In this document: positions 1-62,258 of the stretch, piece after piece
Numbering within the stretch: the stretch's first letter is position 1
Layout of the letters: every line of letters begins with the position of its first letter
NCBI GenBank assembly: GCA_964607165.1
Contig: CAZSIT010000006.1
Location: 11,870 to 75,869, forward strand
Direction: 5' to 3'
DNA length: 64,000 nt
From: an uncultured Ignavibacteria bacterium
GTDB taxonomy: Bacteria > Zixibacteria > MSB-5A5 > DSPP01
Notes under the pieces: model-generated
Databases searched by the model: none
The model's input: only the letters and a program-made list of their open reading frames with translations
What the model was told of the DNA's origin: nothing
Translations under genes and position numbers: made by a program

Positions 1-2540
1 AGCTGGACTATTAGTGGTGGCGGCGGCACCATAATAGGCTCCTCGACCGGCCAATGTGTTACCGTTCAAGCAAGCGGAACCTGCGGAACTTCTTATACCT
101 TAAATTTAACGGTCACCGGCGCCTGCGCCAGCAGCTGCAGCAAAACGGTTCTGGTTAAAGACAACATTAAGCCGACTATTGTCTGTCCGGCCGATATCGT
201 CGCCAGCAACGGCAACTGTTGCGCTAACGTCAGCTTTGCTCCCACCGTTAACGATAATTGCTCGGCAACCTTTGTCTGCACGCCTCCCTCCGGCTTCTGC
301 TTCCCGGTGGGAATGACCACCGTCAAGTGCGTGGCAACGGATGTTTGCGGCAACAAAGATAGCTGCACCTTCAAGATTACGGTCACCGATACGACCAAAC
401 CGACTATCGTCTGTCCGGCTAATATTGTTAAGAACACCGATCCGGGTCTGTGCTGTGCGGCGGCGACTTTTGCGCCCACCACCGGCGACAACTGCCCGGG
501 ACAAACCTTTACTTGTACTCCCCCTTCGGGCACCTGCTTCCCGGTCGGCGTGAATCCGGTAAAGTGTGTGGTGACCGATGCGGCGGGTAACAAGGATAGC
601 TGCAGCTTTACGGTTACGGTTACCGACAATTCCAAACCGACCATTGTCTGCCCGTCCAACATCAGCAAGAGTAACGATCCCGGTCAGTGCTGCGCGGCGG
701 CGACCTTTGCGCCCACCACCGGTGACAACTGCCCCGGAGAGACCTTTAGTTGCACGCCCCCTTCCGGCACCTGCTTCGGCATTGGGACGACTCCGGTCAA
801 GTGCGTGGTGACTGATGCGGCGGGTAACAAGGACAGCTGCACTTTCACGGTGACGGTCAGCGACACCGAGCCGCCTTCCATAGTTTGTCCGGCCGACATC
901 GTGGCCAGCAACGGCGGTTGCTGTGACGTCGTCAACTTTGCACCCACCGTTTCCGACAACTGCCCGGGAGAGACCTTTGCCTGTGTTCCGCCCTCCGGCT
1001 TCTGCTTCCCGGTCGGGATGACCACGGTAACCTGTACGGCCACCGATGCCGCAGGCAATCAAACTCCCTGCAACTTCAAGATTACGGTCACCGATACGTC
1101 CAAACCGACTATCGTCTGCCCGGCTAATATTGTTAAGAACACCGATCCGGGCCTCTGCTGTGCGGTGGCGACCTTTGCACCTACCACCGGCGACAACTGC
1201 CCGGGAGAGACCTTTGTCTGCACGCCTCCTTCCGGCTTCTGCTTCCCAGTCGGCGTGAATCCGGTCAAGTGCGTGGTGACCGATGCGGCGGGTAACAAGG
1301 ACAGCTGCACCTTCACAGTGACGGTCAGCGACAATTCCAAACCGACCATTGTTTGCCCGGCCAACATAACCAAAGGCACCGACCCCGGTCTGTGCTGTGC
1401 CGTGGCGACTTTTGCGCCTACCACCGGCGACAATTGCCCGGGAGAGATTTTTACCTGCACCCCGCCTTCCGGCACCTGCTTCGGCATTGGGACGACTCCG
1501 GTCAAATGCGTGGTGACTGATGCTTCCGGCAACAAGGACAGCTGCACTTTCACGGTGACGGTCAGCGACAACTCCAAACCGACCATTGTTTGCCCGGCCA
1601 ACATTACCAAAGGTACCGACCCCGGTCTCTGCTGCGCGGTGGCGACCTTTGCGCCAACGGTTGGTGATAATTGCCCCAATCCAACCTTCGTTTGCACGCC
1701 GCCTTCCGGCACCTGCTTCAACAAGGGAACGAATACTGTTAAATGTGTGGTGACCGATGCTTCCGGCAACAAAGACAGCTGCACGTTTACGGTAACGGTC
1801 AATGACAATACCAAGCCGACCATCACCTGCCCGGCCAATATCACCAAGGGCACCGACCCCGGTTTGTGCTGTGCGGTGGCGACCTTTGTACCTACGGTTG
1901 GTGACAATTGTCCCGGCCAGACTTTCACCTGCACGCCACCTTCCGGCACCTGCTTTAACGTCGGAACAAACACCGTTAAGTGCGTGGTGACCGACGCCGC
2001 CGGCAACAAGGACAGCTGCACCTTTACCGTAACGGTTACTGACAATACCAAGCCGAACATCGCCTGCCCGGCTAACATCACCAAGGGCACCGACCCCGGT
2101 CTCTGCTGCGCGGTGGCGACCTTTGCGCCAACGGTTGGTGACAATTGTCCCGGCCAGACTTTCACCTGCACGCCGCCTTCGGGAACTTGCTTTGCGATCG
2201 GGACAACCACGGTTAAGTGTGTGGTAACCGACGCCGCAGGCAACAAGGACAGCTGCACCTTCACGGTGACGGTCAATGACAATACCAAGCCAAGCATAGT
2301 TTGCCCGGCCAACATCACCAAAGGCAACGACCCCGGCCAGTGCTGTGCGGTGGCGACCTTTGCGCCGACGGTTGGCGACAACTGCCCTGGCCAGACTTTC
2401 AGCTGTACGCCACCTTCCGGTACCTGCTATCCGCTCGGCGTGAATACGGTCAAGTGCGTGGCAACCGACGCCGCCGGCAATAAAGACAGCTGCACCTTTA
2501 CGGTCACCGTCAACGATACGACCAAGCCCTCCATCGCCTG
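1..2540. repeat. Tandem coding repeat array, period 237 nt (79 aa), at least 11 units, several nearly identical at nucleotide level
   Basis: Recurring nt blocks ...aaaccgaccattgtttgcccggccaacat(c/a)accaaaggcaccgaccccggtctgtgctg... at about 237-nt spacing. The antisense long ORFs (106..2841 and others) are by-products of the repeats. Confidence 0.85.
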
Positions 2541-4563: not shown

Positions 4564-4704
4564 CTCGATGCGGCATCCGGCCGCTTCTAACAACAACTCC
4601 CGACGAAACTTGTTCCAAAGGGTGGTTTGGGAGGCTCAGGATATAACAGCCCGCCGCAAGGTGGGCTGTTATATTTTTGGAGGTTTTTGCAGAAGAACAA
4701 AAAA

Positions 4705-7683: not shown

Positions 7684-7814
7684 CATTAGGAATAGTATGA
7701 GGTTAGAAAATATTCTGTTTAAAGCCGCTTTTTTATTGACATTTAATTGGGCAGGCAGTATACTTAGGGTGGCATCCAGAGGGTGGGAGGCCGGTAAGGA
7801 AGTTGGAGGTTGAT

Positions 7815-9570: not shown

Positions 9571-9582
9571 GACGGTTGCAAA

Positions 9583-9745
9583 AGTTTCGGCGCTCGTCGA
9601 GCTTAATAGGGAAGGCGGTTAAAATCCGCCGCAGCCCCGCTACTGTAAGCAGCCGAGCCCGCCGCAAAAAGCCACTGTCCGCCGGAGGCGGATGGGAAGG
9701 CGCGGCGGGTTGCTGTAAGCCAGGAGACCTGCCGGAACAAGAACC
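9583..9745 (+). promoter_or_regulatory. Cobalamin (B12) riboswitch
   Basis: Conserved blocks AATAGGGAAGGCGGTTAAAATCCGCCGCAGCCCCGCTACTGTAAGC and the B12 box GCCAGGAGACCTGCC sit in the 5' leader of a TonB-dependent receptor gene. Confidence 0.85.
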
Positions 9746-9767
9746 ATAAACCTTCGCGGGAAGGAGA

Positions 9768-25617: not shown

Positions 25618-25693
25618 TAGCCCCGGCCCGATTCGAACGGGCGACCAACGGTTTAGGAAACCGCTGCTCTATCCAATCTGAGCTACGGGGCCC
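25618..25693 (-). tRNA. tRNA-Arg (anticodon CCT)
   Basis: The minus strand reads GGCCCCGTAGCTCAGATTGGATAGAGCAGCGGTTTCCTAAACCGTTGGTCGCCCGTTCGAATCGGGCCGGGGCTA. Cloverleaf with anticodon loop TTCCTAA, T-loop TTCGAAT, G1-U72 wobble, no encoded CCA. Confidence 0.85.
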
Positions 25694-35508: not shown

Positions 35509-36846
35509 ATGAACGGGAGCCACTGTGTCCCAAAAACAATCTTAGGTCTTCTATTTTTGATTTCTACGGCAATTGCCCAACCGAAAGTGGAGATTAAATA
35601 TCGATTGAACGGCCCCGCCGGTTCTCACTTCGGCTGGAGCGTTTCAAAAATAGGAGACGTCGATGGCGACTACGCGCCCGATATCATAATCGGTGCGCCC
35701 CAGGCCTCTCCAAACGGTAAAACCGCCGCCGGCTCAATTTTCATCTACTCCGGCAAAACCGGGAAACTAATTTCCAGAAAGGATGGAGCCAACGCTGCCG
35801 ACCGCTTCGGACAAATCCTTTGCGGTTTTGCCGACCTGAATGGCGACCCAAAAGGAGATTTTGCCGTAGGCCTTCCGGAAGCGGATCCGGATGGAAAAAT
35901 CCAGGCCGGTTCGGTATTGGCTTTTTCCGGAACAAACGGCCGGCTGCTTTATCAAGTAAACGGGCGCGCGCCGTTTGAGCTTTTTGGCCAGACACTATGT
36001 AACGCGGGTGATGTAAACCGGGATGGCCACGAAGACTTTGCCGCCGGCGCTCCAAATGCAAGTTCGGGAGCGAATGCGGCGACCGGAGCAATACGGGTTT
36101 TTTCCGGGCAGGACGGCCGGCTTATTTTCGAAGTCCCGGGCCAACAACCCGGCGAACTATTAAGTGTTTGTGCCGCCGCCGAAGACGTGAACGGTGATGG
36201 ATTTGCCGATTTACTCATCGGCCATCCCAATGCCGATTGGAAGGGAATAAAACAAGCCGGCATCGTTCAAATCTTTTCCGGCGCGCTAAACGGCGCTAAC
36301 CGATTGCTGTTTGAATTGGGCGGCAACAAGGAAAGACAGAACTTCGGCCAATATCTCGCCGGAGCGGGCGACCTGAACGGCGATAAAAGAGCCGACTTTA
36401 TCGTCGGCGCGCCGATTGATTGCCACAATGGCGAAGCCTTCGTTTACTCTGGAGGTACCAAAAATCTTCTTTTTCATTTGTCCCATCCTCCCGGCCAATT
36501 CTGTCATTTCGGAGAGACCGTAACCGCCGCAGGAGATTTGGATGGAGACGGAATTCAAGATTTGGCGGTCGGAAGCGCTACCGACTCACCCGAGGGAAAA
36601 AGTTTGGCCGGCCATTTGAAACTCTTTTCCGGCGCCACCGGTAAAGAATTTTTTGACCTCAAAGGCACCGAACCCGAAAGCCGCCTTGGTTTTTCGGTTG
36701 CCGCTCTGGGAGACGTTGACGCTGATGGAGCCACTGAATTTGCGGTTGGCGTTCCCTATGCCACTTCGACCAAAGGGCCGCAAGGGGGGCAGGTTTTAAT
36801 TTTCACATTGCAGGCCAAAACCCGCTCAAAAACGACTGAAAAATGA
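35509..36846 (+). CDS. Secreted FG-GAP/VCBS-repeat beta-propeller protein
   Basis: Signal peptide. Repeated GDVNGDG..D.[IL]VGAP units (FG-GAP Ca-binding repeats). Confidence 0.7.
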   Translation: MNGSHCVPKTILGLLFLISTAIAQPKVEIKYRLNGPAGSHFGWSVSKIGDVDGDYAPDIIIGAPQASPNGKTAAGSIFIYSGKTGKLISRKDGANAADRFGQILCGFADLNGDPKGDFAVGLPEADPDGKIQAGSVLAFSGTNGRLLYQVNGRAPFELFGQTLCNAGDVNRDGHEDFAAGAPNASSGANAATGAIRVFSGQDGRLIFEVPGQQPGELLSVCAAAEDVNGDGFADLLIGHPNADWKGIKQAGIVQIFSGALNGANRLLFELGGNKERQNFGQYLAGAGDLNGDKRADFIVGAPIDCHNGEAFVYSGGTKNLLFHLSHPPGQFCHFGETVTAAGDLDGDGIQDLAVGSATDSPEGKSLAGHLKLFSGATGKEFFDLKGTEPESRLGFSVAALGDVDADGATEFAVGVPYATSTKGPQGGQVLIFTLQAKTRSKTTEK

Positions 36847-36929
36847 GCCGGCAAAAATTCCGCCGCCCTTGAAAAAACAAGTTTGCAAGGCCGTCTTGTT
36901 TCCAACCCGCTTCAGTATATCTTAAGCGC

Positions 36930-37856
36930 ATGTCTCCGGTCTTTGAATTGGAAAAACTTTCTTATCCTGAAATTGATGCTTTGGAACGGGACAAAACTCT
37001 CGTATTCCTACCCCTCTCTCCGCTCGAGGAGCACGGCACCCATCTGCCGGTTGGAGTGGATTTCTTTAATGCCGCTTTCTTTGCCCGCCAAGCGGCGGAA
37101 AACTTGGTCGCCGAGCGGCCCGACCTAAACGTTCTTTTGTACCCCTGCATTCCAATTGGAACCAATACCTTTCAAATGGTCGGTTCCATCTGGGTAACGG
37201 CGAAAACATTAAAGCGCTTGATTGTTGAAATTGCGAGTTCTTTGGCCAAGTTCGGTTTCCGTAAAATTGCGCTTTTCTCGGCCCACGGCGGTCCCTTGCA
37301 CCTCCTCGCTTTGGAGGAGGCTTGCTTTCACGCCCGCCGCAAGCTGCGCGCAGAAATCATCCTCCCCGGACAGGCCCCGACCATAAAATTCTTGCGCGGC
37401 CAATACACTTCCCAAGTCGAAAACGCCCTGGGCCGCAAGCTGACCGAAGAAGAAAAAAAAGCCCTGCCCCACGATTTTCACGCCGGTTGGTGGGAAACTT
37501 CGATGATGTTATTCCTCTTTCCCCAACTGGTCAAGCCGGAATACAAAAAATTAGACCCGGTTTTAGCCGGCTTGAAAGACTTGCGAACGTCAGCTATTCC
37601 AAAATTGGGAAAAGGTGAAGGGTATATGGGCTCGCCGGCTTTGGCTTCGAGAGAATTTGGCCAGGCTACCGCCGACCTTTTCTGCCGTATTGGTCATTCA
37701 ACTCTTCTAAAGTTAGCCAAAGGCGAGGACACATCGGAGGAGACCGAGACCATTTTGACCCAAATCGTTCGCTGGAAATTCTGGCTTAGCCGGGCACTGG
37801 TTCTCTCCGGTATTATCCTAATCCTCTTTCTCTTTTTCAAAGGCGTTCTGCATTGA
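36930..37856 (+). CDS. Creatininase-family amidohydrolase with C-terminal TM helix
   Basis: LVFLPLSPLEEHGTHLPVGVD is the creatininase metal-binding N-terminal motif. The C-terminus LVLSGIILILFLFF is hydrophobic. Confidence 0.6.
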   Translation: MSPVFELEKLSYPEIDALERDKTLVFLPLSPLEEHGTHLPVGVDFFNAAFFARQAAENLVAERPDLNVLLYPCIPIGTNTFQMVGSIWVTAKTLKRLIVEIASSLAKFGFRKIALFSAHGGPLHLLALEEACFHARRKLRAEIILPGQAPTIKFLRGQYTSQVENALGRKLTEEEKKALPHDFHAGWWETSMMLFLFPQLVKPEYKKLDPVLAGLKDLRTSAIPKLGKGEGYMGSPALASREFGQATADLFCRIGHSTLLKLAKGEDTSEETETILTQIVRWKFWLSRALVLSGIILILFLFFKGVLH

Positions 37857-38118
37857 GAAAACTTAGAAACTCTCCATTTGACAGAGCGGAAGAACACTCG
37901 TAACTTAAAGCTTTAATATTTTTGTTTGGTTTTAGAGATTAGCAATTCTATGCAAGCGCTTTCAATGGGATGATTCCCACACTCAAAACCGGGTGATAAC
38001 AAAAAGGCTGACAAACAGTTACTGCTCTAATTTTCTGGTAGTCTTCGGGCACAAAGGTTGCGTGGTTAAAGCACGGGAAAAGCCCCGCAAGCCTGGGGCC
38101 GAAAAAAGGAGAAAACGG

Positions 38119-40017
38119 ATGAAAAATGTTCTAAGGTTTATTCTTATTTTACATCTAATCGCCGCAACAACCGTTCTTGCCCACGATGGCAAAGACCATC
38201 CCAAACTGGTTGTTGTTGCCAACAACTTGAACTTTTGTACACACGCCATCGTAGGTGGTCAGACGCCCGCGCCGGGACCAAAGATTTTGAGGGTTCGCGG
38301 CGCCAACAACGAAGATTTGGATGAAGAAAAACCGGCGACCTTGCTCTGGAAAGCCACAGCGTCAGAAGGTTGGATAAAAATTAGCCCTGACTCCGGTTTG
38401 ACCCCTTCGGAAGCCACGGTTTGGGTTGACCCGGCGGGGTTGGAATTGGGCGAACACGATGGAGAAATTCGTTTCGATACCCCTGGACAACTAAAACCGC
38501 GTTTCGTCCAAGTAAAATTCAGGATACACGCGCCGCTGCCTGGTTTAGTTCTCGAACCGAACGAGATTCACTTTTTCGGAACCGCCTTTTCCAATCAAAT
38601 CCTAACCGACAGCGTTCGGGTAACGGCTTCCGGAAACACCGAAGTCGAATTTGAAGTTTCTAACTCCCAGCGTTGGCTTGCTGTAATTCCTAATGAAGGT
38701 GAAATTCCTGCTGTTGTTAAGCTTAAAGCCTTCGTCGATTCCCTAATTCCTGGAACATACTACGATACCGTAATCTTTCGCGCCGCCAGCGGAGAAAATG
38801 CCCAAGAACCAGATAACCACGGCTGCGGCAAAGACGATGAGCTTTCGGCCCTGCTGCCGGTCACACTTTCTATTACATCAAACGGGCCGGGAGCTTTGGA
38901 GGTTGTTCCCAGACAGCTCGGCTTTGCCGCCACCTTTGGGGGCCCGAACCCCCAGTCGCAACAGCTGTTCATTTCCGTGCGTGAATCATTGCAGGCGCCC
39001 TGGGAAGCCCATCATAACCAAAGCTGGCTTTCTTTAGACCCCGCTTCCGGCACGGCAACCGGCGATCCCTCGGAAATTACGGTGGATGTTGCGGTGGACA
39101 GCCTTCCGCCCGGCCCCTACGTCGATTCAATATTTTTCATCTCTCCAAATGCCGGCATCGACGGCGCTCTGGTAATAGTTTTCCTGCAAATATTCCCTTC
39201 TTCGGGACTATCCGACAGCGTCGCCATAGCCGATTTGACCATTCCCCTTACAAGTCCCATAACCAAATTTTCCGTTCCGATTTTCGCATCAAACACTCAA
39301 GCCGTCCGTTCTATCATCCTTCCGCTGCGTTTCGAAGACGGGCAAACGGTTTTGGACTCGGTAACCTTTTTGGGCGGGCGGGCGGAATTCGCCGATTTGA
39401 AGTTCTTTCTGCGTTTAGCCGACCCCAAAGAGTTTCTATTGCTTATCGGTTTTATCGCAACGCCGGCTCTGCCCCCCGGTTCAGGCACCATCGGCTGGCT
39501 GCACTTCACCACCACCGGATTTCCACCGCAAGGAATCGATACGTTGATTATTGACTCCACCAGCGTCTCCAATCCGATTTCATCCTCAATGGGAAATGTG
39601 ACCTTGCAGCAAAGTCTTTCGATCTCTTACATTGTCACTATCGGGGGCAATCTTTTCATTCTAAATCCGGCTTTCAAGAAGGGAACCGTAATTCTCGCCG
39701 TCCCTTCGGCGGCCGAAGACCGGGACGGCAACCGGCCCAAAAAATTCAGCCTGGCGCAAAATTATCCCAACCCGTTCAATCCGCAAACCTCGATCGCCTA
39801 CACTTTGCCCAAAGCGGCCACCGTTCGGCTTGATGTTTTTGATATCTTGGGACGAGCAGTTACGACCCTATTGGACAAGGAACAGTCCGCTGGCACCTAC
39901 AACGTTATTTGGGATGGGCGCGACCGAGAAGGCAACGTGGTTTCCACTGGAATCTATTTCTACCGGTTCAAAACCGACGAATATTCGGAAACCAAAAAAA
40001 TGCTCTTCGTGAAGTAA
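38119..40017 (+). CDS. Secreted protein of unknown function with T9SS C-terminal sorting domain
   Basis: GGAG RBS and ATG at 38119 (MKNVLRFILILHLIAATTVLA is a signal peptide). C-terminus FSLAQNYPNPFNPQTSIAYTL...GIYFYRFKTDEYSETKKMLFVK. Confidence 0.7.
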   Translation: MKNVLRFILILHLIAATTVLAHDGKDHPKLVVVANNLNFCTHAIVGGQTPAPGPKILRVRGANNEDLDEEKPATLLWKATASEGWIKISPDSGLTPSEATVWVDPAGLELGEHDGEIRFDTPGQLKPRFVQVKFRIHAPLPGLVLEPNEIHFFGTAFSNQILTDSVRVTASGNTEVEFEVSNSQRWLAVIPNEGEIPAVVKLKAFVDSLIPGTYYDTVIFRAASGENAQEPDNHGCGKDDELSALLPVTLSITSNGPGALEVVPRQLGFAATFGGPNPQSQQLFISVRESLQAPWEAHHNQSWLSLDPASGTATGDPSEITVDVAVDSLPPGPYVDSIFFISPNAGIDGALVIVFLQIFPSSGLSDSVAIADLTIPLTSPITKFSVPIFASNTQAVRSIILPLRFEDGQTVLDSVTFLGGRAEFADLKFFLRLADPKEFLLLIGFIATPALPPGSGTIGWLHFTTTGFPPQGIDTLIIDSTSVSNPISSSMGNVTLQQSLSISYIVTIGGNLFILNPAFKKGTVILAVPSAAEDRDGNRPKKFSLAQNYPNPFNPQTSIAYTLPKAATVRLDVFDILGRAVTTLLDKEQSAGTYNVIWDGRDREGNVVSTGIYFYRFKTDEYSETKKMLFVK

Positions 40018-40608: not shown

Positions 40609-41370
40609 CTACTCGTGGGCAAACTTATCTTCAATCATCCCGCGCAGTTTCAAAACCGACTTGGTGTGAATCTGCGAAACGCGCGATTCTGAAATTTTCA
40701 TCACTTCGCCGATTTCCTTTAGCGTCAATTCTTCGTAGTAATACAGGGCGACCACTAACTTCTCCTGCTCCGAAAGCCGGGTTATGGAATTGGTCAGAAA
40801 AGCTTTTAATTCATCCTTTTCCAAATCTCCCAGAATATTATCTTTGGTCGAGGCCCCGACCGTTTCCACCCGCGGCACCTGCCGGTTGTCCTCTTCGCGA
40901 TACACCAGCTCGTCCAAAGACAAAATCGTGGTGCCGGAAACATCGTCCAAATCCCAGAGCAGGTCTTTGACCGAAATCCTAAGCGCCTTGGCCAGTTCGG
41001 TATCATTGGGTATGCGCCCCAATTTGTTTTCTAACTTGGCGACGGTGCGCTCGATGGCCCGCGACTTGGCGCGCGTGGAACGCGGCACCCAGTCCAGGGC
41101 GCGCAGTTCGTCCAAAATGGCTCCGCGGATGCGCGGCACGGCGTAGGTCTCGAACTTTACCCCCCTTTTCGGGTCAAAATTTTTCAAAGCTTCTATTAAA
41201 CCTATCACGCCGGTAGAGACCAGATCGTCCAGTTCCACCGAACGCGGAAACCCAATCGCCATTCGCCCCGCCACGCCTTTTACCAGCGGCAGATACTGCA
41301 CCAAAAGCTCTTCCCGCGCTTTCGGGTCATTAGTCTTCCGATAACTCTGCCACGATTTTTCTACGTTCAT
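40609..41370 (-). CDS. fliA: RNA polymerase sigma factor FliA/WhiG (sigma-28) family
   Basis: Sigma-70 regions 2/3/4. YLPLVKGVAGRM...ETYAVPRIRGAILDELR. C-terminal HTH LTLKEIGEVMKISESRVSQIHTKSV. Confidence 0.7.
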   Translation of the reverse strand: MNVEKSWQSYRKTNDPKAREELLVQYLPLVKGVAGRMAIGFPRSVELDDLVSTGVIGLIEALKNFDPKRGVKFETYAVPRIRGAILDELRALDWVPRSTRAKSRAIERTVAKLENKLGRIPNDTELAKALRISVKDLLWDLDDVSGTTILSLDELVYREEDNRQVPRVETVGASTKDNILGDLEKDELKAFLTNSITRLSEQEKLVVALYYYEELTLKEIGEVMKISESRVSQIHTKSVLKLRGMIEDKFAHE

Positions 41371-41915
41371 TTCCCCTTCCTTTTGCTTTTCAAATGAACC
41401 GGACTGCTTTTCTTCCTATCGCTTCGACGAACTCGAATGCTCTTTGCCACCGTCTCGGTTGACGGAATTTGATTTGGCTGCACAATCTCACCCACCATCA
41501 CCAAAGCCGAGACCATTCCCTGCCGAGCCGCTGCGAAAAGCTCATTCGGGCAATCTTTCCAGAGAACCGCCCCTTGAACTTTGGTTACGGTCGGTTTCGG
41601 CTTTTCTTTTTTGGAGGCAACGCCGGTTTTTCTTGCCGGCGTTTTCAAGCTTTCTTTGGTAGTGGTGGGAAACTCAAACTTTTTGTAACCGCCATTGCCC
41701 GAATTGCCGGAAGGCGGAATGAAATCTTGGCGCACAAAACGGTTTTTCTTGGCATTTAGTGCGTGGCGAAGAATCTTTCTCTCCGCCTGCTCATTCTGCA
41801 CAACTCGAAAAATCCCGCTCCCACTGTCATTCTGAACGAAGTGAAGAATCTGGGCTTGGGCGGGGTCTTCTTGTTTTATCCTTAAAGAAAGCCTTCCACT
41901 TGGGGCAAAAGCCAT
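41367..41915 (-). CDS. Hypothetical protein, translationally coupled to fliA; start uncertain
   Basis: 4-nt overlap with fliA. The ORF extends to 42059, but its first 48 codons are encoded by an interspersed repeat element. An internal Met is at 41915. Confidence 0.35.
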   Translation of the reverse strand: MAFAPSGRLSLRIKQEDPAQAQILHFVQNDSGSGIFRVVQNEQAERKILRHALNAKKNRFVRQDFIPPSGNSGNGGYKKFEFPTTTKESLKTPARKTGVASKKEKPKPTVTKVQGAVLWKDCPNELFAAARQGMVSALVMVGEIVQPNQIPSTETVAKSIRVRRSDRKKSSPVHLKSKRKGK

Positions 41916-41940
41916 CTTTTCTGTCTGCTTGTGGTGAGCG

Positions 41941-42014
41941 GACTTGTCCCGACTTGTTCCGCTTGCGTTGAGCGCAGCGTGAACGAGCGCAGCCGAGGAA
42001 GCGTAGTCGAGGGA
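41941..42014. repeat. Copy of the interspersed CGAGCG...GTAGTCGAGGGA repeat family
   Basis: cttgtcccgac...cgagcgcagccgaggaagcgtagtcgaggga. Related copies at 45318-45340 (inverted), 45524-45560, 56516-56560, 57307-57378 and 58218-58241. Confidence 0.8.
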
Positions 42015-42369
42015 GTCGAACCGCCAAACTCCTATTTTGACCGGCATCTTTTCAATCACGGGGCTTAGTTAATCAAACCCCGTGCCCTTATGCCTGAATT
42101 TGGCAACTATCTAACCCTTTGATTTCTAAGGGGTTACAAACTCGACTTTAGGGTCAGCCGTGTATGTCGGAAAACTTTTCCAAAAAGGGGCGGAAAAAAG
42201 GGGCTTTTTCACAAGCAAGTATGGGAGTTACCCTATAGCAAAAAACAAGATTTTTGCATTTTGAAATCAGTTGAAAAAATGCATAAACAGAATCTTTGTT
42301 TCCCTGTTGCAAGCTAAACAAAAAATTGTGGGTTGATTTTTGAAGGTAAAAGGACGAGATTTTCTGTCG

Positions 42370-45303
42370 ATGGCTCCCAAAGAAGTTCTCGAATTAGTCG
42401 AACAATTCGAGCGGAATATTGATTCCTATCGAAACCCGGCCTACAACGAAGCCCAGGTCCGTCAGGAATTCATAAACCCGTTATTTGAAGCGCTCGGTTG
42501 GGATATGGCCAACCGGCAGGGGTATGCCGAGGCGTACAAGGAAGTCATCCACGAAGCGGCGGTAAAAGTCGGAGCGGCAACCAAAGCCCCGGATTACGCC
42601 TTCCGCATCGGCGGAACCAAAAAATTCTTTTTGGAAGCCAAAAAGCCGGGGGTGGACCTAAAGAACAATTCCGAACCGGCCTATCAGCTTCGGCGCTACG
42701 CCTGGAGTGCCAGACTGCCGCTTTCCATTCTGACCGACTTCGAGGAATTCGCCGTCTATGATTGCCGGATAAAACCCTCTCCCAAAGACAAGGCCAGTGC
42801 GGGGCGGACTCTTTACTTAACCTATCGCGAATACGAATCCCGGTGGGCGGAGATTGCCGGGATTTTTGACAAACAGTCCATCCAGCAAGGTTCTTTTGAC
42901 CGCTATGCCGAAGGGGCCAAAGGGAAGCGGGGCACTTCGCCGGTGGACGACGCTTTCCTGAAAGAGATTGAGGACTGGCGTTCCGAACTGGCCCACAACA
43001 TCGCCCGGCGCAATCCCCGGCTGAAAGTGCGCGACCTGAACTTTGCCGTTCAGCGCACCATCGACCGCATCATCTTTTTGCGGATGTGCGAAGACCGGGG
43101 CATCGAATCCTACGGCCAGTTGCAGAGTTTGTTGAATGGAGTGAATGTCTATTCCCGACTCAGGCAAATCTATGATTTGGCGGACGACAAATACAATTCC
43201 GGGCTCTTTCATTTTCAGCCTGAAAAAGACCGTGCCGAACAACCAGATGAGCTAACACCAAAACTCAAAATAGATGACAAGGTTCTGAAAGACATTATCA
43301 GCCGCCTGTATTACCCCGAAAGCCCCTACGAATTCTCGGTTTTGAGCGGCGACATTCTGGGCAACGTCTATGAACAGTTTTTGGGCAAGGTCATTCACCT
43401 CACCAAAACCCATCAAGCCCGTATTGAAGAAAAGCCGGAGGTCAAAAAGGCGGGCGGGGTTTATTATACGCCCAAATACATTGTGGATTACATCGTCAAA
43501 AACACGGTCGGCAAGTTGTGCGAGAATAAAACTCCAAAGCAGATCGAAAAACTGAAAATCTTGGACCCGGCCTGCGGCTCCGGCTCGTTTTTAATCGGCG
43601 CTTACAGCTATCTTTTGGACTATCACCGTGAATGGTATGAAAAAAAACGTGGTGGAACGACCCCCTCCGACCCTTCGGGTCTCGTCCCCCTTCGTAAGGG
43701 GGACAGAAATGAGATTTTTCAGGGTTCGGGCGGGGAGTGGTATTTGACCACGCAAAAGAAAAAGGAAATCCTTTTGAACAACATCTACGGGGTGGACATC
43801 GACAGCCAGGCGGTGGAGGTAACCAAGCTGAATCTTTTGCTTAAAGTTTTGGAAAATGAAACGAAGGATACGCTGGAAAGCCAGATGAAGCTCTGGCGGC
43901 ACCGGGCTTTGCCGGATTTGGGGAACAACATCAAATGCGGGAATTCGCTGATTGGGCCGGATTATTATCACGGGAAACAGTTGAGTTTGTTGGATGAAGA
44001 GGAACAGCTAAAGGTCAACCCTTTTGATTGGAAAGCAGAGTTTTCCGAGACCATTAAATCAGGCGGATTTGATGCGGTTATTGGGAATCCGCCGTATACA
44101 CTCATAGGATCGGACCAACCTGATCAACAAGCCTATTTGAGGGTAGGGTTTAAACTAAGTGCGTATAAGATTAACACGTACCTGCTGTTCCTAGAACGAG
44201 GTTTAAGCCTCCTTGGTAAAGATGGAGCCATTCTCGGATACATCATCCCGAAATCACTGGTGTTTAATACATACTTTGAAGGCACTAGACGGAGCTTACT
44301 TTCGGATTTTGCTATTCCGGAAATTATTGAAATCCGAGACAAGGTTTTTGAAAACGCTGAAGTGGGAGATAGTATTCTATTCTTTGCTCAGTGTCACAGG
44401 GCTCCTCAGACGAATACGTTAGTTTACTCCAAGGTTCGAAACATTTATCCAGTATTTGAATTGCTTGAGAAATACCGCTCTCCACAAAAAAAATTGCTCT
44501 CTCAGAGTCATCCTTCGTTCTTTTTCAGCAGCTTTGCGATCAATGTTCCGACGAAGGAATTAGACCAACTAGCTGATGTTTCGAATGGCCTTAATCCAGG
44601 CAACGTCCGACAAATTCTTTTCAGTAAGAGAAAAGCAAGTTCGAAACATCAACGACTTCTTCTCGGTCGGGACATACAGCATTACATCCTTCACTGGTCT
44701 GGCACTTGGGTCAATTATGATCCTGCCCTGAAGAATCGACTAAAGCTCGCTGATACGAAATCAAAGAGGGGAATGACGGCACAAAAACGTGTAGATTTTG
44801 CATTACGCGATCCTGAGATTTACGCTAAAAACAAGATAATGATAAGGAAAACTGCAGATCATATCGTTGCCTCACTCGACACGATGGGATTCTACTTCGA
44901 TTCTCTCTCCTATGGGGTACAAGTGCTTGAAAGTTGTGCCCTGTCCCCAAAATATTTGCTTGGCTTGCTCAATTCTCAGTTATTGAATTACATCCATGGC
45001 TCTTTCTCCATGAATAAGGAGAAGGTCTTTGCGAAGGTCCTGGCGGAAAATCTCAAACGGCTACCTATCCGGATCATAAACTTCTCGGATCCCACGGACA
45101 AACTCCGCCACGACCGCATGGTGCAATTTGTCGAGCAAATGCTAACGCTCCACAAGCAATTGGCGGTTGCAAAAACTCCCGATGACAAAACCCGCCTGCA
45201 GCGGCACATCGACGCCGCCGACCGGCAGATTGACCAGTTGGTGTATGAGCTGTATGGGCTGACGGAGGAGGAGATTGCGGTGGTGGAGGGGAAAGCAACC
45301 TAA
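42370..45303 (+). CDS. Type IIG restriction-modification enzyme (fused PD-ExK endonuclease, gamma-class N6-adenine methyltransferase, target-recognition domain; MmeI-like)
   Basis: The N-terminus APDYAFRIGGTKKFFLEAKKP is a PD-(D/E)xK motif. Methyltransferase motif I is LDPACGSGSFL and motif IV is IGNPPY. The roughly 350-aa C-terminal region is TRD-like. About 978 aa from the ATG at 42370. Confidence 0.75.
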   Translation: MAPKEVLELVEQFERNIDSYRNPAYNEAQVRQEFINPLFEALGWDMANRQGYAEAYKEVIHEAAVKVGAATKAPDYAFRIGGTKKFFLEAKKPGVDLKNNSEPAYQLRRYAWSARLPLSILTDFEEFAVYDCRIKPSPKDKASAGRTLYLTYREYESRWAEIAGIFDKQSIQQGSFDRYAEGAKGKRGTSPVDDAFLKEIEDWRSELAHNIARRNPRLKVRDLNFAVQRTIDRIIFLRMCEDRGIESYGQLQSLLNGVNVYSRLRQIYDLADDKYNSGLFHFQPEKDRAEQPDELTPKLKIDDKVLKDIISRLYYPESPYEFSVLSGDILGNVYEQFLGKVIHLTKTHQARIEEKPEVKKAGGVYYTPKYIVDYIVKNTVGKLCENKTPKQIEKLKILDPACGSGSFLIGAYSYLLDYHREWYEKKRGGTTPSDPSGLVPLRKGDRNEIFQGSGGEWYLTTQKKKEILLNNIYGVDIDSQAVEVTKLNLLLKVLENETKDTLESQMKLWRHRALPDLGNNIKCGNSLIGPDYYHGKQLSLLDEEEQLKVNPFDWKAEFSETIKSGGFDAVIGNPPYTLIGSDQPDQQAYLRVGFKLSAYKINTYLLFLERGLSLLGKDGAILGYIIPKSLVFNTYFEGTRRSLLSDFAIPEIIEIRDKVFENAEVGDSILFFAQCHRAPQTNTLVYSKVRNIYPVFELLEKYRSPQKKLLSQSHPSFFFSSFAINVPTKELDQLADVSNGLNPGNVRQILFSKRKASSKHQRLLLGRDIQHYILHWSGTWVNYDPALKNRLKLADTKSKRGMTAQKRVDFALRDPEIYAKNKIMIRKTADHIVASLDTMGFYFDSLSYGVQVLESCALSPKYLLGLLNSQLLNYIHGSFSMNKEKVFAKVLAENLKRLPIRIINFSDPTDKLRHDRMVQFVEQMLTLHKQLAVAKTPDDKTRLQRHIDAADRQIDQLVYELYGLTEEEIAVVEGKAT

Positions 45304-45665
45304 CCCCCTGCCCCTTCCCCTCGACTACGCTCGGGACAAGCCCGATGCGGGAAGGGGTGTCGGGCACGCGGCAGTGTGCCCCTACAAAATCACCCCCTGT
45401 ATGTCCCCCCCATACGGGTTAGATTCAACTTAAATACAGGGGGACAAAATATCCGTTTTGTTTTTTCTGCCCCCCCTCTTTGATTTCTTTGTCCCCCTTT
45501 TTTCAAGGGGGACGAGGCTCGACCTGTCCCGAGCGAAGCCGAGGAAGCGTAGTCGAGGGAAGAGCCGGAGGGGGTGGCACTTTTTTCTGCCCCCCTCCTT
45601 GATTTCTCTGTCCCCCTTTCTTCAAGGGGGACGAGGCTCAAAGAGCCGGAGGGGGTAGTTTTTTC
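45304..45665. repeat. Repeat-rich noncoding island: inverted CGAGCG-family copy, 120-nt tandem duplication (45461-45640), GTCCCCCT...AGGGGGAC hairpins
   Basis: The unit ttttttctgcccccctc(t/c)ttgatttct(t/c)tgtccccctttNttcaagggggacgaggctc is present twice. ORFs 45390..45641 and 45458..45658 are artifacts. Confidence 0.8.
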
Positions 45666-46544
45666 CTACCGCCTCTCCCCCAACTTAAAAACTTTTAGTT
45701 GAGCAGATATCGAGCCGATTAAAACCCGGCTTTTCATTAAGATGGGAACCCGCAGCCGGTCATCGGTCAGCCAGACTTTGATTTTTCCCTGATGCTCAAA
45801 AATGCCGGAGGTTTTCAAAAGCGGCTCGACTACGATGGTGCGAAAAGTGCCCGCCGGCACCGTTATCCTTTCTTTTTTAACCACCTTGACTTCGAGCGAA
45901 TATTTCTTTCCATCCGAAAAAGTCTCCATAAAAATCGATTTTCCCACTTCCAGCCGAATCGTGCGCACGTAGTAAAGAGAACTTAAAGCATCTTGCACAA
46001 AATCGGCGGCATCGAGCGTATCCTTGGGAGTATAGATTTTATGCTTGACCTGGTCAAAATCCGCCAGCTTGAACGAAAGATACCCCCCCTCGTGCACGTT
46101 TTTTTGAAAATGCCAGGGAAAAAGCCCGTTGGCGTCCAAGATGGAATAGTTGTAATCCTCCACGTAGTACAACTTGGCCAAGGCGGAATACGATTTCGCC
46201 GTTGAAACCAGCTCGTAGGATTTATGCCCCTTATAATTCACCTTGCGGCGGACTTCCAGGGTGGCCGTGCCGGCTTTGATGAAACCGTAGCCGACTTCGT
46301 ATTCCAGATATTCTCCCGGCCCGAAAGCTTCGTTGGGCAAAACCCGCAGAGGGAGAAGGTAATTGGTGTCCAACAAAATTCCGGCCGTATCCGCCGGTGG
46401 AGAGATTCGGGTGGTATCCGTCGCCGTTACTTCCGCTCCAGCCCGGAAGGTCAGTGCGGCAATTAAAAGCCCTGCCCCAACCAAATGTAGGGGCGAGGCG
46501 TGCCTCGCCCAGGGCGGGGAAACCCCGCCCCTACCAATCGTCAA
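45666..46544 (-). CDS. Secreted DUF3108-like protein
   Basis: Signal peptide LHLVGAGLLIAALTFRAGA. About 250-aa all-beta region. Non-ATG (TTG) start, so the exact start is uncertain. Confidence 0.45.
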   Translation of the reverse strand: MTIGRGGVSPPWARHASPLHLVGAGLLIAALTFRAGAEVTATDTTRISPPADTAGILLDTNYLLPLRVLPNEAFGPGEYLEYEVGYGFIKAGTATLEVRRKVNYKGHKSYELVSTAKSYSALAKLYYVEDYNYSILDANGLFPWHFQKNVHEGGYLSFKLADFDQVKHKIYTPKDTLDAADFVQDALSSLYYVRTIRLEVGKSIFMETFSDGKKYSLEVKVVKKERITVPAGTFRTIVVEPLLKTSGIFEHQGKIKVWLTDDRLRVPILMKSRVLIGSISAQLKVFKLGERR

Positions 46545-57302: not shown

Positions 57303-58136
57303 ATGACTTGTCCCGATCTATTCCGACCTGTCCCGAGCGTAGTCGAGGGAGCGAAGCCGAGGAAGCGTAGTCGAGGGAAACGGTACCTGTTACTAACACT
57401 TGCAGTGGTTTTCATTTTGGGCTTAGCTTTAACCGCCAACGCCCAGCGCAAGAAAACAAAGCCGGAAGAGCCGAAAAAGAGAGCGGAACTGAACCTTTCT
57501 GACGAACAGAAACAAAAACTTGCCGCCATCCACCGCCAGGCCGCCAAAGAGCGCATCCGCCTGCACGCCGACCAACAAATTGCGCGGCTGGAACTCCAGG
57601 AAATGTTGCAGGCTGACCAGCCCAATCAAGCCACCCTCAACAGTAAAATTGAACAATTGGCCGAGCTAAACCGCCAAATGACCAAAAACCGGCTGGATAA
57701 TATGCTGGCTGCCCGCTCGGTTCTGACCAAAGAGCAAAGAATGACAATGCGTCAGATGATGGGTAAGCGGATGGCCAGAATGCACGGCCAAAAGAAAATG
57801 AAAATTTTCCGCTTCCACCGTGGCCCGGGTGGTCCCGGCGGCGGCCCGGGAATGATGATGTTCCAAAAGCGGGGCAAGCCGATGGGTATGGAACAGGAAG
57901 AAATGATGGAGGAAGAGGAATCGGCAGAACCGGAAGATTCCGATGAAGTTGGCACTCTGGAGGGAATTGGTTTCCCGCAGGATGAAGACTTCGCCGAACT
58001 CAATCCGATGGACTTTGGAGAACCGGACGAATTCGATCCATCAAATACACAGCCGTTCGACTGGGAAGATTTTGATGAACCCGCTCCAATGCCCGGTTTC
58101 CGCTCCTTTTCACCGGAAGACGCCGGCTGGCAATAG
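57303..58136 (+). CDS. Periplasmic Spy/CpxP-like (LTxxQ-motif) protein with unusually long signal-peptide n-region encoded by a repeat element
   Basis: Strong AAGGAGGAAC RBS. Codons 2-25 (CPDLFRPVPSVVEGAKPRKRSRGK) are read through a CGAGCG-family repeat copy (57307-57378). An h-region and AxA cleavage site follow. LSDEQKQKL and LTKEQRMTM motifs. Confidence 0.6.
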   Translation: MTCPDLFRPVPSVVEGAKPRKRSRGKRYLLLTLAVVFILGLALTANAQRKKTKPEEPKKRAELNLSDEQKQKLAAIHRQAAKERIRLHADQQIARLELQEMLQADQPNQATLNSKIEQLAELNRQMTKNRLDNMLAARSVLTKEQRMTMRQMMGKRMARMHGQKKMKIFRFHRGPGGPGGGPGMMMFQKRGKPMGMEQEEMMEEEESAEPEDSDEVGTLEGIGFPQDEDFAELNPMDFGEPDEFDPSNTQPFDWEDFDEPAPMPGFRSFSPEDAGWQ

Positions 58137-58192: not shown

Positions 58193-58454
58193 GTGAAAAC
58201 GTAGGGGCGTACCTTTACTTGTCCCGAGCGTAGTCGAGGGAGGTGCGCCTTAGGGGTGAACCTTTTAGGTTCACCCCTACTTTCCCCACAGAGGAAATGT
58301 AGGTGCACAATACTATTGTGCCTTTGTCCCTTCTCCTCGTAGGAGAGGGACCGAGGGTGAGGCCCGCAGGGGCGGGCCGGGGTGGACAAATCCCTGTTCC
58401 CTAATCTCCAATCCCTGTTTTTGTAGGGGCGAGGTCTCCTCGCCCTTCGTTTTC

Positions 58455-61391: not shown

Positions 61392-62258
61392 AATATTTTT
61401 AATCACTAATCCCTGATTCCTGTTTTCTTTGTCCTCCTTGGCAAGGGGGACAAAAATCGAGGTTTTTTTGCAGCGGTTTTGTCAAAAAAACAAAAAAATA
61501 CCCTATCGAGTTTTCCCTGATACAAAATCGATGGCGATTTTGTGGGGAAACTGGGAAAACCTCACCTTTTGTCCCTGGCGGTGGCACGAGGCCTCGGCTC
61601 GGGCCCTCCCTCTCCTTAAAAAGGAGAGGGAGGGCGGGTTGGAAACCCGCCCTACGTCCTTTCCTTTTTGAGTTCTGTGTGTGCGGGATTTAGGCGGTAT
61701 GGGATGGGGAGCAAGGTCTGGCCTTCTTCCCCTTGCTTGCCCATTTTTCTGGTTTGCCATTCACGCGCAGGCAAGGGGCGCGTCCGCGCTATTTTGGTAC
61801 CACACTTATCCTCTCTCTTACTTGCAGGATAAGCGGGCTTAAAGTTTCAGGGAGACATACTGCCTTTGAACCCCGGGAGGGTGAAGGATTCCGGTTTCCT
61901 TCAACTCTTTTGGGGCCAATCCGGTCCTGGCCGGGCCGGTGACCGGCCGGATAAACACACATCCCTGGCCGTGCACGAGCGCTCGGCTCGGGCAGGCCCT
62001 CTACTAATAGTCGACCACCGTTTTTTGCCTCAATTTTTGTTTAGAATTTGCATTTTGACTTACCCCCTCCGGCGCTCTGCGCCTCGTCCCCCTTGAACAA
62101 AGGGGGACAAATAAAAACAGTGATTAGAGATTAGGGATTCGTCCGCCCCACCACCGCTCCAAAATCTGTCCCCCTGTATTTAAGGGGGACTTACAGGGGG
62201 TGTTTTACTACCTTTCCTCCGAAACTTACGTATATTTAACGGATATGGGGACAGGCCA
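61392..62258. repeat. 867-nt noncoding repeat island (GTCCCCCT..AGGGGGAC hairpins, GGGCGGGTT..AACCCGCCC hairpin, two CACGAG..CTCGGCTCGGGC copies) with imperfect terminal inverted repeats
   Basis: taatcactaatccctgattcc at 61401-61421 versus cagtgattagagattagggattcg at 62118-62141. Hairpins at 61427-61452, 61607-61635, 62086-62108 and 62177-62200. Confidence 0.6.

What the first reader, a model, noticed from the sequence alone, without database searches (positions are those of the whole stretch)
41941..45665. Solitary type IIG restriction-modification gene bracketed by copies of an interspersed repeat: a likely inserted defence islet
The 2.9-kb RM gene is the only plus-strand gene in a minus-strand neighbourhood. 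It is flanked on the left by a CGAGCG...GTAGTCGAGGGA repeat (41941-42014) and on the right by an inverted copy plus a direct copy (45318-45340, 45524-45560). These sit inside a 360-nt repeat-rich island. Repeat-flanked, singly orientated defence genes suggest horizontal acquisition or repeat-mediated mobility.
Basis: partly seen in the sequence, partly recalled or inferred. Interest (0 to 1): 0.6.

Follow-up and report, generated by a model that had tools for sequence, protein, structure and literature searches.

The report
Accessory mosaic restriction gene among hairpin repeats
This is an intact single-protein restriction-modification gene that one Zixibacteria lineage carries at a spot where its close relatives carry other genes. 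The repeats around it are ordinary genome-wide hairpin repeats that also sit there in relatives without the gene, so the finding is real but fairly ordinary.

Summary
ORF 42370-45303 (+) is a type IIG restriction-modification enzyme, with a PD-ExK nuclease, an Eco57I-type N6-adenine methylase and a TaqI_C recognition domain. All three repeat copies are at the stated coordinates, where chance predicts none.

The "inserted islet" reading is supported. A close relative (L004; flanking proteins 72-97% identical) keeps both flanks but has an amidohydrolase gene and an IS1595 element in place of the RM gene. Four other relatives show no RM gene next to DUF3108. A sister allele sits at an unrelated site in another Zixibacterium (L001).

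The "repeat-bracketed, repeat-mobilised" reading is not supported. The left repeat is orthologous in relatives without the RM gene, and 328 bp of native DNA separate it from RM-specific sequence. RM-specific DNA is about 42343-45649.

- The gene is a mosaic. The recognition-domain cassette (about 44100-45150, GC3 0.46) is 94-95% identical to an allele whose backbone is only about 75% identical.
- A copy of the hairpin repeat lies in frame inside the gene (43651-43712). It adds about 14 residues in a loop predicted to be disordered.
- The repeats nest inside each other's hairpin loops.

The gene is under strong purifying selection (omega 0.05-0.14). An independent assembly reproduces the locus at 99.9% identity. 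Verdict: new member of a known kind, modest interest.

The parts
41941..42014 (+). Family-A repeat cluster (...CGAGCGCAGCCGAGGAAGCGTAGTCGAGGGA). It is native to the site, not an RM boundary.
   Evidence: It lies within the block 42342-41875 that aligns to RM-less L004 13078-13544 at 83%. A similar repeat sits at L008 3790-3840.
42015..42342 (.). Conserved native non-coding region upstream of the minus-strand sigma-factor (fliA-like) operon. It must also supply any promoter for the RM gene.
   Evidence: 83% identical to L004, which lacks the RM gene. It is partly present in L008 at 3582-3639. No Rfam family matches at the gathering threshold.
42343..42369 (+). RM-specific 5' leader of about 27 nt. 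This is the left junction of the accessory segment, and no repeat is present.
   Evidence: Homology to L004 stops at 42342. Sequence read directly.
42370..45303 (+). Type IIG restriction-modification gene, 977 aa. Motifs: nuclease PD75...E89-A-K91, methylase motif I DPACGSGSF (aa 399-407), motif IV NPPY (aa 573-576), TaqI_C recognition domain (aa 763-900).
   Evidence: AF2 model with mean pLDDT 86.6. Foldseek hits to BpuSI, MmeI and DrdV. omega 0.05-0.14.
43651..43712 (+). In-frame copy of the family-B double-hairpin repeat inside the CDS. It encodes about aa 428-447 (GGTTPSDPSGLVPLRKGDRN), in a loop predicted to be disordered.
   Evidence: 84% complementary to 45624-45660. Scores 78.9 bits against covariance model R1, noting it is one of that model's seven seed sequences. 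Absent from L002 and longer in L001. 96 of 109 homologs have a 24-28 aa segment where this protein has 38 aa. pLDDT is below 50 for aa 431-443.
44100..45150 (+). Exchanged target-recognition-domain cassette. It has low GC (43.5%; GC3 0.46). The breakpoints lie just after NPPY and before the conserved C-terminal helices.
   Evidence: 94-95% nt identity to L002, versus 70-84% for the backbone. Unalignable to L001. dS is 0.19 here and saturated in the backbone. Composition.
45304..45365 (+). Hairpin CCCCTTCCC...GGGAAGGGG immediately after the stop codon. A 23-24 nt family-A copy (45318-45340, inverted) is nested in its loop.
   Evidence: L001 has the same hairpin with a 5-nt loop.
45383..45452 (+). 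Family-C hairpin repeat (CACCCCCTGTA-GTCCCCC...GGGGGAC) with extra sequence in its loop. Its CTTAAATACAGGGGGACAAAA half also lies downstream of the L001 RM gene.
   Evidence: Family-C copies also sit at L003 10826-10875, window 62160-62210 and L004 12213-12245/12974-12990.
45461..45584 (-). Family-B double-hairpin repeat carrying a nested 38-nt family-A copy (45520-45561).
   Evidence: D1, D9: spacing 119 vs 81; 67.2 bits.
45602..45665 (-). Family-B double-hairpin repeat abutting the DUF3108 stop codon. RM-side homology to L004 resumes at 45650.
   Evidence: (86.6 bits).
45666..46544 (-). DUF3108 gene, the conserved right flank of the variable spot.
   Evidence: Pfam E=1.6e-39. Orthologs in L003-L009 are 72-93% identical.
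41367..41915 (-). Unannotated gene upstream of the sigma-factor gene, the conserved left flank. The start codon is uncertain.
   Evidence: 72% aa identity to L004 13507-14049. No Pfam or NCBIfam hit.

Best explanation
The ORF encodes a functional, solitary type IIG restriction-modification enzyme in one polypeptide. The domains run N-terminal PD-ExK nuclease, helical linker, gamma-class N6-adenine methyltransferase, then a TaqI_C-type recognition domain.

From the behaviour of the family (inferred, not shown here), it should bind a specific sequence through the recognition domain and methylate adenine there to mark the host genome. It should cut unmethylated incoming DNA at a distance.

In this Zixibacteria lineage the gene is an accessory insert of about 3.1-3.3 kb (42343 to about 45450-45649). 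It sits in a variable spot between the DUF3108/LMW-phosphatase/Sua5 block and the upstream region of a sigma-factor (fliA-like) operon. Relatives hold other cargo at the same spot.

The gene is a recombinant. Its backbone is typical of Zixibacteria, and its recognition-domain cassette was recently swapped in from a lower-GC allele. The conserved sequence on either side of the cassette probably served as the recombination handles (inferred).

The surrounding repeats belong to at least three lineage-wide families of short hairpin repeats, similar to REP or MITE elements. They populate intergenic DNA, nest in one another's hairpin loops, and have entered coding sequences in frame, including this gene. 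They mark the spot as recombination-prone but are not the termini of an RM mobile element.
For: Identity and integrity of the gene:
- Pfam and PADLOC assignments.
- Catalytic residues D75, E89 and the P574-P575 of NPPY are invariant, and K91, N573 and Y576 nearly invariant (at least 90%), across 109 homologs.
- AF2 model with mean pLDDT 86.6, and Foldseek hits to BpuSI 3s1s (E 2e-21), MmeI 5hr4 (E 6e-18) and DrdV 7lvv (E 3e-17).
- Purifying selection, omega 0.045-0.14.
- An independent JGI assembly (L010) is 99.9% identical over 4601 nt with no gaps.

Accessory status:
- L004 has both flanks (DUF3108 93%, sigma factor 97%, PilZ 94% aa) but carries an amidohydrolase gene and an IS1595 element instead of the RM gene.
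- L008 has an RM-less junction.
- L003, L005 and L006 have no RM gene in the DNA available beyond DUF3108.
- The sister allele L001 lies between csrA-fliW and lon in another Zixibacterium.

Mosaicism.

Repeats are native and not termini.

In-CDS repeat.

Nesting of repeats.
Against: - No enzymatic, methylome or expression data exist, and the recognition sequence is unknown.
- No convincing promoter-like or terminator-like site beyond chance was found around the gene.
- The direction of the event cannot be proven from six partial loci. It could be a gain here or losses elsewhere.
- Several relatives' contigs end within 1-2 kb of DUF3108 (L003, L005, L008).
- The 3' flank of the RM gene does share repeat modules with L001, so a role of repeats in one-sided recombination cannot be excluded.
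Confidence: 0.78

Rival explanations
1. One reading: the RM gene is the cargo of a repeat-bounded mobile unit, and the family-A repeats on both sides mediate its excision, insertion or recombination.
For: 3 of 5 family-A copies and 3 of 4 family-B copies in the 64-kb window lie within 41.9-45.7 kb. The RM gene's 3' flank shares a stop-proximal hairpin, a family-A copy and a family-C half with the L001 allele at a different locus. In L001's 22.9 kb these repeats were found only in or next to the RM gene.
Against: The left repeat is orthologous in RM-less L004, a similar repeat sits in the same position in RM-less L008, and it is separated from RM-specific DNA by 328 bp of conserved native sequence. 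No repeat is present at the 5' junction in either the window or L001. No transposase or integrase lies in the islet. No target-site duplication was recognised.
Confidence: 0.12
2. The RM gene is ancestral at this junction and was deleted or replaced in the relatives, for example by the amidohydrolase and IS events.
For: The backbone has native-like GC3 (0.623 vs 0.577 +/- 0.054) and native-like codon usage (distance 0.069 vs median 0.083). The spot clearly undergoes rearrangements in relatives, including IS1595 and duplicated DUF3108 3' ends.
Against: None of five relatives' loci keeps any RM remnant (tblastn). The closest alleles (L001, L002) sit in unrelated contexts. L008 has a compact junction with native sequence on both sides.
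Confidence: 0.1

Closest known systems
Type IIG (IIC/IIL) single-chain RM enzymes: BpuSI (PDB 3S1S, PMC3185434), MmeI (5HR4), DrdV (7LVV), Eco57I family
   Same: The domain order is the same: PD-ExK nuclease, linker, gamma-class N6-adenine methylase (NPPY), C-terminal recognition domain. The gene is solitary like MmeI. PADLOC REase_MTase_IIG matches at E=4.5e-198, with Foldseek hits to these structures.
   Different: Sequence identity to any solved enzyme is only 12-19%. The MTase-TRD part is structurally closest to the orphan methylase CamA. The specificity and cleavage geometry are unknown. The protein carries a repeat-derived 14-aa loop.
Target-recognition-domain exchange ('domain movement') in RM genes (Furuta et al. 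2011, PMC3077401; PMC3983042)
   Same: A recognition-domain cassette is replaced between alleles, with conserved flanking sequence as the likely handles. Here dS is 0.19 in the cassette versus saturated in the backbone.
   Different: It is seen here between metagenome-derived alleles in Zixibacteria and an unidentified 46%-GC organism, not within one species' population.
Rickettsia palindromic elements and other REP/MITE-like repeats inserted in frame in protein-coding genes (own knowledge: Ogata et al. 2000 Science; reviewed in PMC10969869)
   Same: A short palindromic interspersed repeat sits in frame in a functional gene, at a surface loop, with the reading frame and selection preserved. 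A second case lies just after the ATG of ORF 57303.
   Different: It occurs in a different phylum with unrelated sequence. The copy number in the genome is unknown, since only 64 kb plus a few loci were seen. No mobilising transposase was identified.
REP/BIME elements as insertion targets for IS elements and other repeats (own knowledge: Tobes and Pareja 2006)
   Same: Insertions sit in hairpin loops. An IS1595 element lies in a family-C loop in L004. Family A lies in a family-B loop and in the hairpin just after the RM stop codon.
   Different: The target preference is inferred from three or four cases only.
Defence islands / variable integration hotspots between conserved core genes
   Same: Conserved flanks hold different accessory cargo in relatives: the RM gene here, amidohydrolase +/- IS1595 in L004 and L008, and DUF5131 + TcmP in L005.
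   Different: The spot holds a single defence gene, not a cluster. Some of the alternative cargo is not obviously defensive.

Membership tests
Type IIG restriction-modification enzyme | Nuclease and methyltransferase in one polypeptide | tested here: met
   HSDR_N (aa 25-133, E 6e-12), Eco57I (E 1.9e-35) and N6_Mtase (E 2.4e-20) in one 977-aa ORF. PADLOC REase_MTase_IIG at E 4.5e-198.
Type IIG restriction-modification enzyme | Intact PD-(D/E)XK nuclease motif | tested here: met
   P74-D75...E89-A90-K91. P74, D75 and E89 are invariant and K91 at least 90% conserved across 109 homologs.
Type IIG restriction-modification enzyme | Gamma-class N6-adenine MTase motifs I and IV | tested here: met
   DPACGSG-F (aa 399-405 and F407) is invariant, with S406 at least 90% conserved. 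In NPPY (aa 573-576), P574 and P575 are invariant and N573 and Y576 at least 90% conserved.
Type IIG restriction-modification enzyme | C-terminal target recognition domain | tested here: met
   TaqI_C at aa 763-900, E 2.3e-17. This region is the modular, exchanged part.
Type IIG restriction-modification enzyme | Overall fold resembles solved type IIG enzymes | tested here: met
   AF2 mean pLDDT 86.6. Foldseek hits: BpuSI 3s1s E 2.3e-21, MmeI 5hr4 E 6e-18, DrdV 7lvv E 3e-17. TM-scores are low (0.29-0.48) because of domain arrangement.
Type IIG restriction-modification enzyme | AdoMet-dependent cleavage at a fixed distance from a specific site, and methylation of that site | not testable with these tools
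   This needs enzyme assays or methylome sequencing.
Repeat-bounded mobile element (MITE-pair or composite-transposon-like cargo) | Repeats sit directly at both junctions of the inserted DNA | tested here: not met
   The left junction (42342/42343) has no repeat. The left repeat lies 328 bp outside it, within native DNA.
Repeat-bounded mobile element (MITE-pair or composite-transposon-like cargo) | Repeats are absent from empty sites in relatives | tested here: not met
   The family-A cluster is present in RM-less L004 (13400-13480) and L008 (3790-3840). Family C is present in L004.
Repeat-bounded mobile element (MITE-pair or composite-transposon-like cargo) | A transposase or integrase in or beside the unit, or target-site duplication | tested here: not met
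   No such gene lies between 40066 and 48794. No duplication was recognised at the junctions.
Variable accessory/defence hotspot between conserved genes | Same flanks, different cargo in related genomes | tested here: met
   The window has the RM gene. L004 has amidohydrolase + IS1595. L008 has amidohydrolase. L005 has DUF5131 + TcmP. L006 shows a synteny break.
In-frame palindromic repeat insertion (RPE-like) | An extra segment relative to homologs that matches an interspersed genomic repeat, with the ORF kept | tested here: met
   The window has about 39 nt extra relative to L002. The segment is 84% complementary to 45624-45660. It scores 78.9 bits against model R1, of which it is a seed sequence. 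The segment is 38 aa versus 24-28 aa in 96 of 109 homologs. omega is 0.05 in the flanking sequence.
In-frame palindromic repeat insertion (RPE-like) | Located in a tolerant surface loop | tested here: met
   pLDDT is below 50 with no secondary structure for aa 431-443, between helix 406-428 and strand 449-451. This is a prediction only.
BREX PglX methyltransferase | Reaches the family cut-off and has BREX partner genes nearby | tested here: not met
   NCBIfam BREX_1_MTaseX scores 102 bits against a cut-off of 500. The neighbours are not BREX genes. PglX lacks the N-terminal nuclease (own knowledge).

The most novel reading that the evidence does not exclude
The A, B and C repeats of these Zixibacteria may be an undescribed family of structure-targeting miniature elements. 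On this reading they insert preferentially into the loops of existing hairpins: the hairpin after the RM stop codon, each other, and the spot where an IS1595 element also landed. They also enter coding sequences in frame. Their portable homology may help shuffle accessory genes such as this RM cassette between chromosomal sites. Compensatory changes in hairpin 2 (GACCC/GGGTC, GGCGC/GCGCC, GGCTC/GAGCC, GGCC/GGCC) would then reflect recognition of structure by a mobilising enzyme acting in trans.
Probability: 0.25. Interest if true: 0.5.

Novelty: new member of a known kind. Interest (0 to 1): 0.3.

Why it matters
The locus is a clean natural example, in the little-studied candidate phylum Zixibacteria, of three known ways in which defence genes diversify:
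- presence/absence at a variable spot;
- recent exchange of the DNA-recognition cassette inside a single-chain RM enzyme;
- tolerance of selfish hairpin repeats inside a functional gene.

It also corrects an appealing but wrong inference, that flanking repeats imply the ends of a mobile element. The repeat families may merit a genome-wide census. The RM gene itself is ordinary.

Tried and rejected
- An exact look-up of the window's own protein (P0001) on public contigs found nothing on record. The 99.9%-identical P0121 contig (L010) was used instead.
- The genome-contig scan with DUF3108 gave only one relative, whose contig ends 1 kb past the gene. The metagenome scan supplied the informative loci.
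- Rfam at the gathering threshold found no family in or near the locus, only a cobalamin riboswitch and a tRNA elsewhere.
- The promoter and terminator consensus scan gave nothing above shuffled expectation.
- The first AF2 run with 14 sequences was too poor to use (pLDDT 55). It was repeated with 109 sequences.
- A sequence search of the PDB found only methylase-domain hits, CamA and BseCI.
- tblastn against phages found no match. Plasmids gave only 38%-identical N-terminal matches.
- An assembly artefact or chimera was considered and rejected because of L010.
- BREX PglX was considered and rejected because the score is below the cut-off and there are no partner genes.
- An integron-cassette reading of the single-gene cargoes was considered. 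It was dropped because no integrase is present and the orientations are mixed.
Full report
**Observation.** The region holds a 977-aa ORF on the + strand (42370-45303).
- 41984-42014 and 45530-45560 are 31-nt direct copies, 97% identical.
- 45318-45331 is a perfect inverted 14-mer of both. It extends to 21-23 nt at 100% identity against further copies at 57329-57349 and 58218-58240.
- The 20-mer core occurs three times in the window against zero expected in shuffles.
- The 360 nt between the stop codon and the next gene is densely repetitive and folds far better than shuffled controls (z = -8.8).
- The gene is the only + strand gene between 40066 and 55087, although the genes at 35509-40017 are also +.

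**What the gene is.** Pfam finds an HSDR_N nuclease domain (aa 25-133), Eco57I/N6_Mtase methylase (aa 327-660) and a TaqI_C specificity domain (aa 763-900).
- The best PADLOC model is REase_MTase_IIG (E 4.5e-198, aa 4-693).
- BREX PglX models score far below their cut-offs (102 vs 500 bits), and the neighbours are not BREX genes.
- Of the nuclease motif P74-D75...E89-A-K91, P74, D75 and E89 are invariant and K91 is at least 90% conserved in 109 homologs. The same holds for methylase motif I (DPACGSG-F invariant, S406 at least 90%) and for NPPY at aa 573-576 (P574 and P575 invariant, N573 and Y576 at least 90%).
- An AlphaFold model built on that alignment is confident (mean pLDDT 86.6, pTM 0.75).
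- By Foldseek the model hits the type IIG/IIL enzymes BpuSI, MmeI and DrdV, and its methylase-recognition half hits CamA, M.BseCI and M.TaqI.
- Codon-level comparison shows strong purifying selection: omega 0.045-0.06 for the backbone against L001, and 0.14 for the recognition domain against L002.
- An independent JGI metagenome contig (L010) reproduces window 41765-46365 with 4 mismatches and no gaps. The arrangement is therefore not an assembly artefact.

**Whose genome, and is the gene an insert?** The right-hand neighbours run DUF3108, LMW phosphatase, Sua5, nucleotidyl transferase and onward. They are collinear with a "Candidatus Zixiibacteriota" MAG (L003) and with five metagenome contigs.
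- **L004 is the decisive locus.** Its DUF3108 (93% aa), the unnamed left-flank gene (72%), the sigma factor (97%), PilZ (94%) and the BACON/T9SS protein (88%) are all present in the same order, but there is no RM homolog. Between the flanks L004 carries four things: an amidohydrolase gene, a 45-nt duplicate of the DUF3108 3' end, a hairpin repeat split by an IS1595-family element, and a stretch homologous to window 42342-41875.
- **L008** shows an even more compact RM-less junction.
- **L005** has a DUF5131/TcmP pair. **L006** has unrelated genes. **L003** has repeats and a small ORF.
- RM-specific DNA in the window is therefore about 42343-45649.
- The closest other alleles sit in unrelated contexts. 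L001 lies between csrA-fliW and lon in another Zixibacterium, whose EF-G best named hits are Zixibacteria at 80-82%. L002 lies beside a short-chain dehydrogenase.
- This supports the "accessory, inserted" part of the interpretation. Loss in relatives is not formally excluded.

**The repeats are not the ends of a mobile unit.**
- The left repeat (41941-42014) lies inside the block that aligns continuously with RM-less L004 at 83% identity. L004 (13400-13480) and L008 (3790-3840) have the same kind of repeat at the same place.
- 328 bp of conserved native non-coding DNA (42015-42342) separate the left repeat from the first RM-specific base. Only about 27 nt precede the ATG.
- Neither the window nor L001 has a repeat at the 5' junction.
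- No transposase or integrase lies in the islet.
- On the 3' side there is partial support for a repeat connection. The window and L001 share the stop-proximal hairpin CCCCTTCCC...GGGAAGGGG, a family-A copy and the CTTAAATACAGGGGGACAAAA half of a family-C repeat. In L001's 22.9 kb these repeats were found only in or beside the RM gene.
- One-sided recombination at such repeats is therefore possible but unproven.

A sliding comparison gives three zones.

| Window region | vs L001 | vs L002 |
|---|---|---|
| 42370 to about 44090 | 80-88% identical | 70-84% identical |
| about 44100-45150 | unalignable | 94-95% identical |
| last 150 nt | about 83% | about 83% |

- Synonymous divergence from L002 is 0.19 in the cassette and saturated in the backbone.
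- The cassette is compositionally foreign: GC 43.5%, GC3 0.46 against 0.577 +/- 0.054 for window genes, and codon-usage distance 0.110. The backbone looks native, with GC3 0.623 and distance 0.069 against a median of 0.083.
- L002's context is 46.5% GC.
- The breakpoints fall right after NPPY and before the conserved C-terminal helices. This is recognition-domain exchange as described for RM genes (PMC3077401).

- Window 43651-43712 is an inverted copy of the double-hairpin family-B repeat found twice just downstream and once at 62053-62116. It is 84% complementary. It scores 78.9 bits against covariance model R1, though it was one of the seven sequences used to build that model.
- Relative to L002 it is an in-frame insertion of about 39 nt. 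L001 has a longer insertion at the same codon that shares the 3' 30 nt.
- Among 109 homologs the segment is 24-28 aa in 96, 38 aa in the window protein and 56 aa in the L001 allele.
- In the AF2 model the insertion is one of only two segments with pLDDT below 50. It is a loop between helix 406-428 and strand 449-451.
- This resembles the in-frame palindromic elements of Rickettsia (own knowledge; reviewed in PMC10969869).
- A second in-frame case lies at 57310-57379, just after the ATG of a secreted protein.

**Anatomy of the repeats.**
- Family B is ACCCCCTCCG, a variable 4-7 bp hairpin, TC, then an invariant GTCCCCC...GGGGGAC hairpin.
- Across seven copies the first hairpin shows compensatory changes. 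Four of its five pairs have double changes, and 0 of 500 shuffles reach the observed covariation score. The sample is small.
- Repeats nest in hairpin loops in four cases. A 38-nt family-A copy sits in the loop of one family-B copy (spacing 119 vs 81 nt). A family-A copy of about 24 nt sits in the loop of the hairpin after the RM stop codon, compared with L001. Extra sequence sits in the family-C loop at 45405-45428. In L004 an IS1595 element lies in a family-C loop.

**Verdict.** The gene is a new member of a well-known kind. Its mosaic recognition domain and in-frame repeat are instructive but have precedent.

Noticed in passing
window 57303-57380: A family-A repeat sits in frame directly after the ATG of ORF 57303-58136, which has a strong AAGGAGG ribosome-binding site upstream. 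It precedes a typical signal peptide (KRYLLLTLAVVFILGLALTANAQ), giving a 25-aa repeat-encoded N-terminal extension.
   Followed up: partly
window 41750-41874: The 5' part of the unnamed gene upstream of the sigma-factor gene is not alignable to L004. It holds another short repeat (41825-41851, TGTCATTCTGAACGAAGTGAAGAATCT), which also occurs at L003 5328-5354, with a degenerate copy at 41750-41776. The true start codon of this gene is uncertain.
   Followed up: partly
window 42015-42342: About 330 nt of conserved non-coding DNA lies upstream of the sigma-factor operon. It is 83% identical to L004 and partly present in L008. It contains a CACGGGG...CCCCGTG hairpin (42058-42086) and a TTTTGCATTTTGAAAT...TTGAAAAAATGCA palindrome. 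No Rfam family matches. It could be a regulatory leader or a small RNA.
   Followed up: no
L004 10750-12212; L008 1991-3390: An amidohydrolase gene starts at the DUF3108 stop codon and is followed by a duplicate of the last 45 nt or so of DUF3108. In L004 the second copy resembles the L003/L008 version more than L004's own first copy, which suggests import by recombination.
   Followed up: partly
L004 12246-12973: An IS1595-family element (225-aa DDE transposase; inverted ends GGACTGGCACAGAATT) is inserted in the loop of a GTCCCCCTTA...TAAGGGGGAC hairpin repeat.
   Followed up: partly
L005 2947-4187: Downstream of DUF3108 this relative carries a DUF5131 (phage Gp37/Gp68-like) gene and a three-Cys-motif partner protein TcmP. 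This is another accessory module at the same spot.
   Followed up: no
window 184-2551: Long internally repetitive DNA: many overlapping self-matches at 72-84% identity with offsets that are multiples of about 237 nt. It is probably a repeat-domain protein gene.
   Followed up: no
window 3061-4564 and 6178-7684: Two dispersed segments of about 1.4 kb are 83-88% identical, indicating duplicated genes.
   Followed up: no
window 9571-9750; 25618-25692: A cobalamin riboswitch (115 bits) and a tRNA gene were found by Rfam.
   Followed up: no
L003 11100-11430 (-): A small basic Cys-containing ORF is embedded between family-B repeats downstream of DUF3108 in the Zixibacteria MAG PMV_8.32. It has no Pfam hit and no counterpart in the window.
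   Followed up: no
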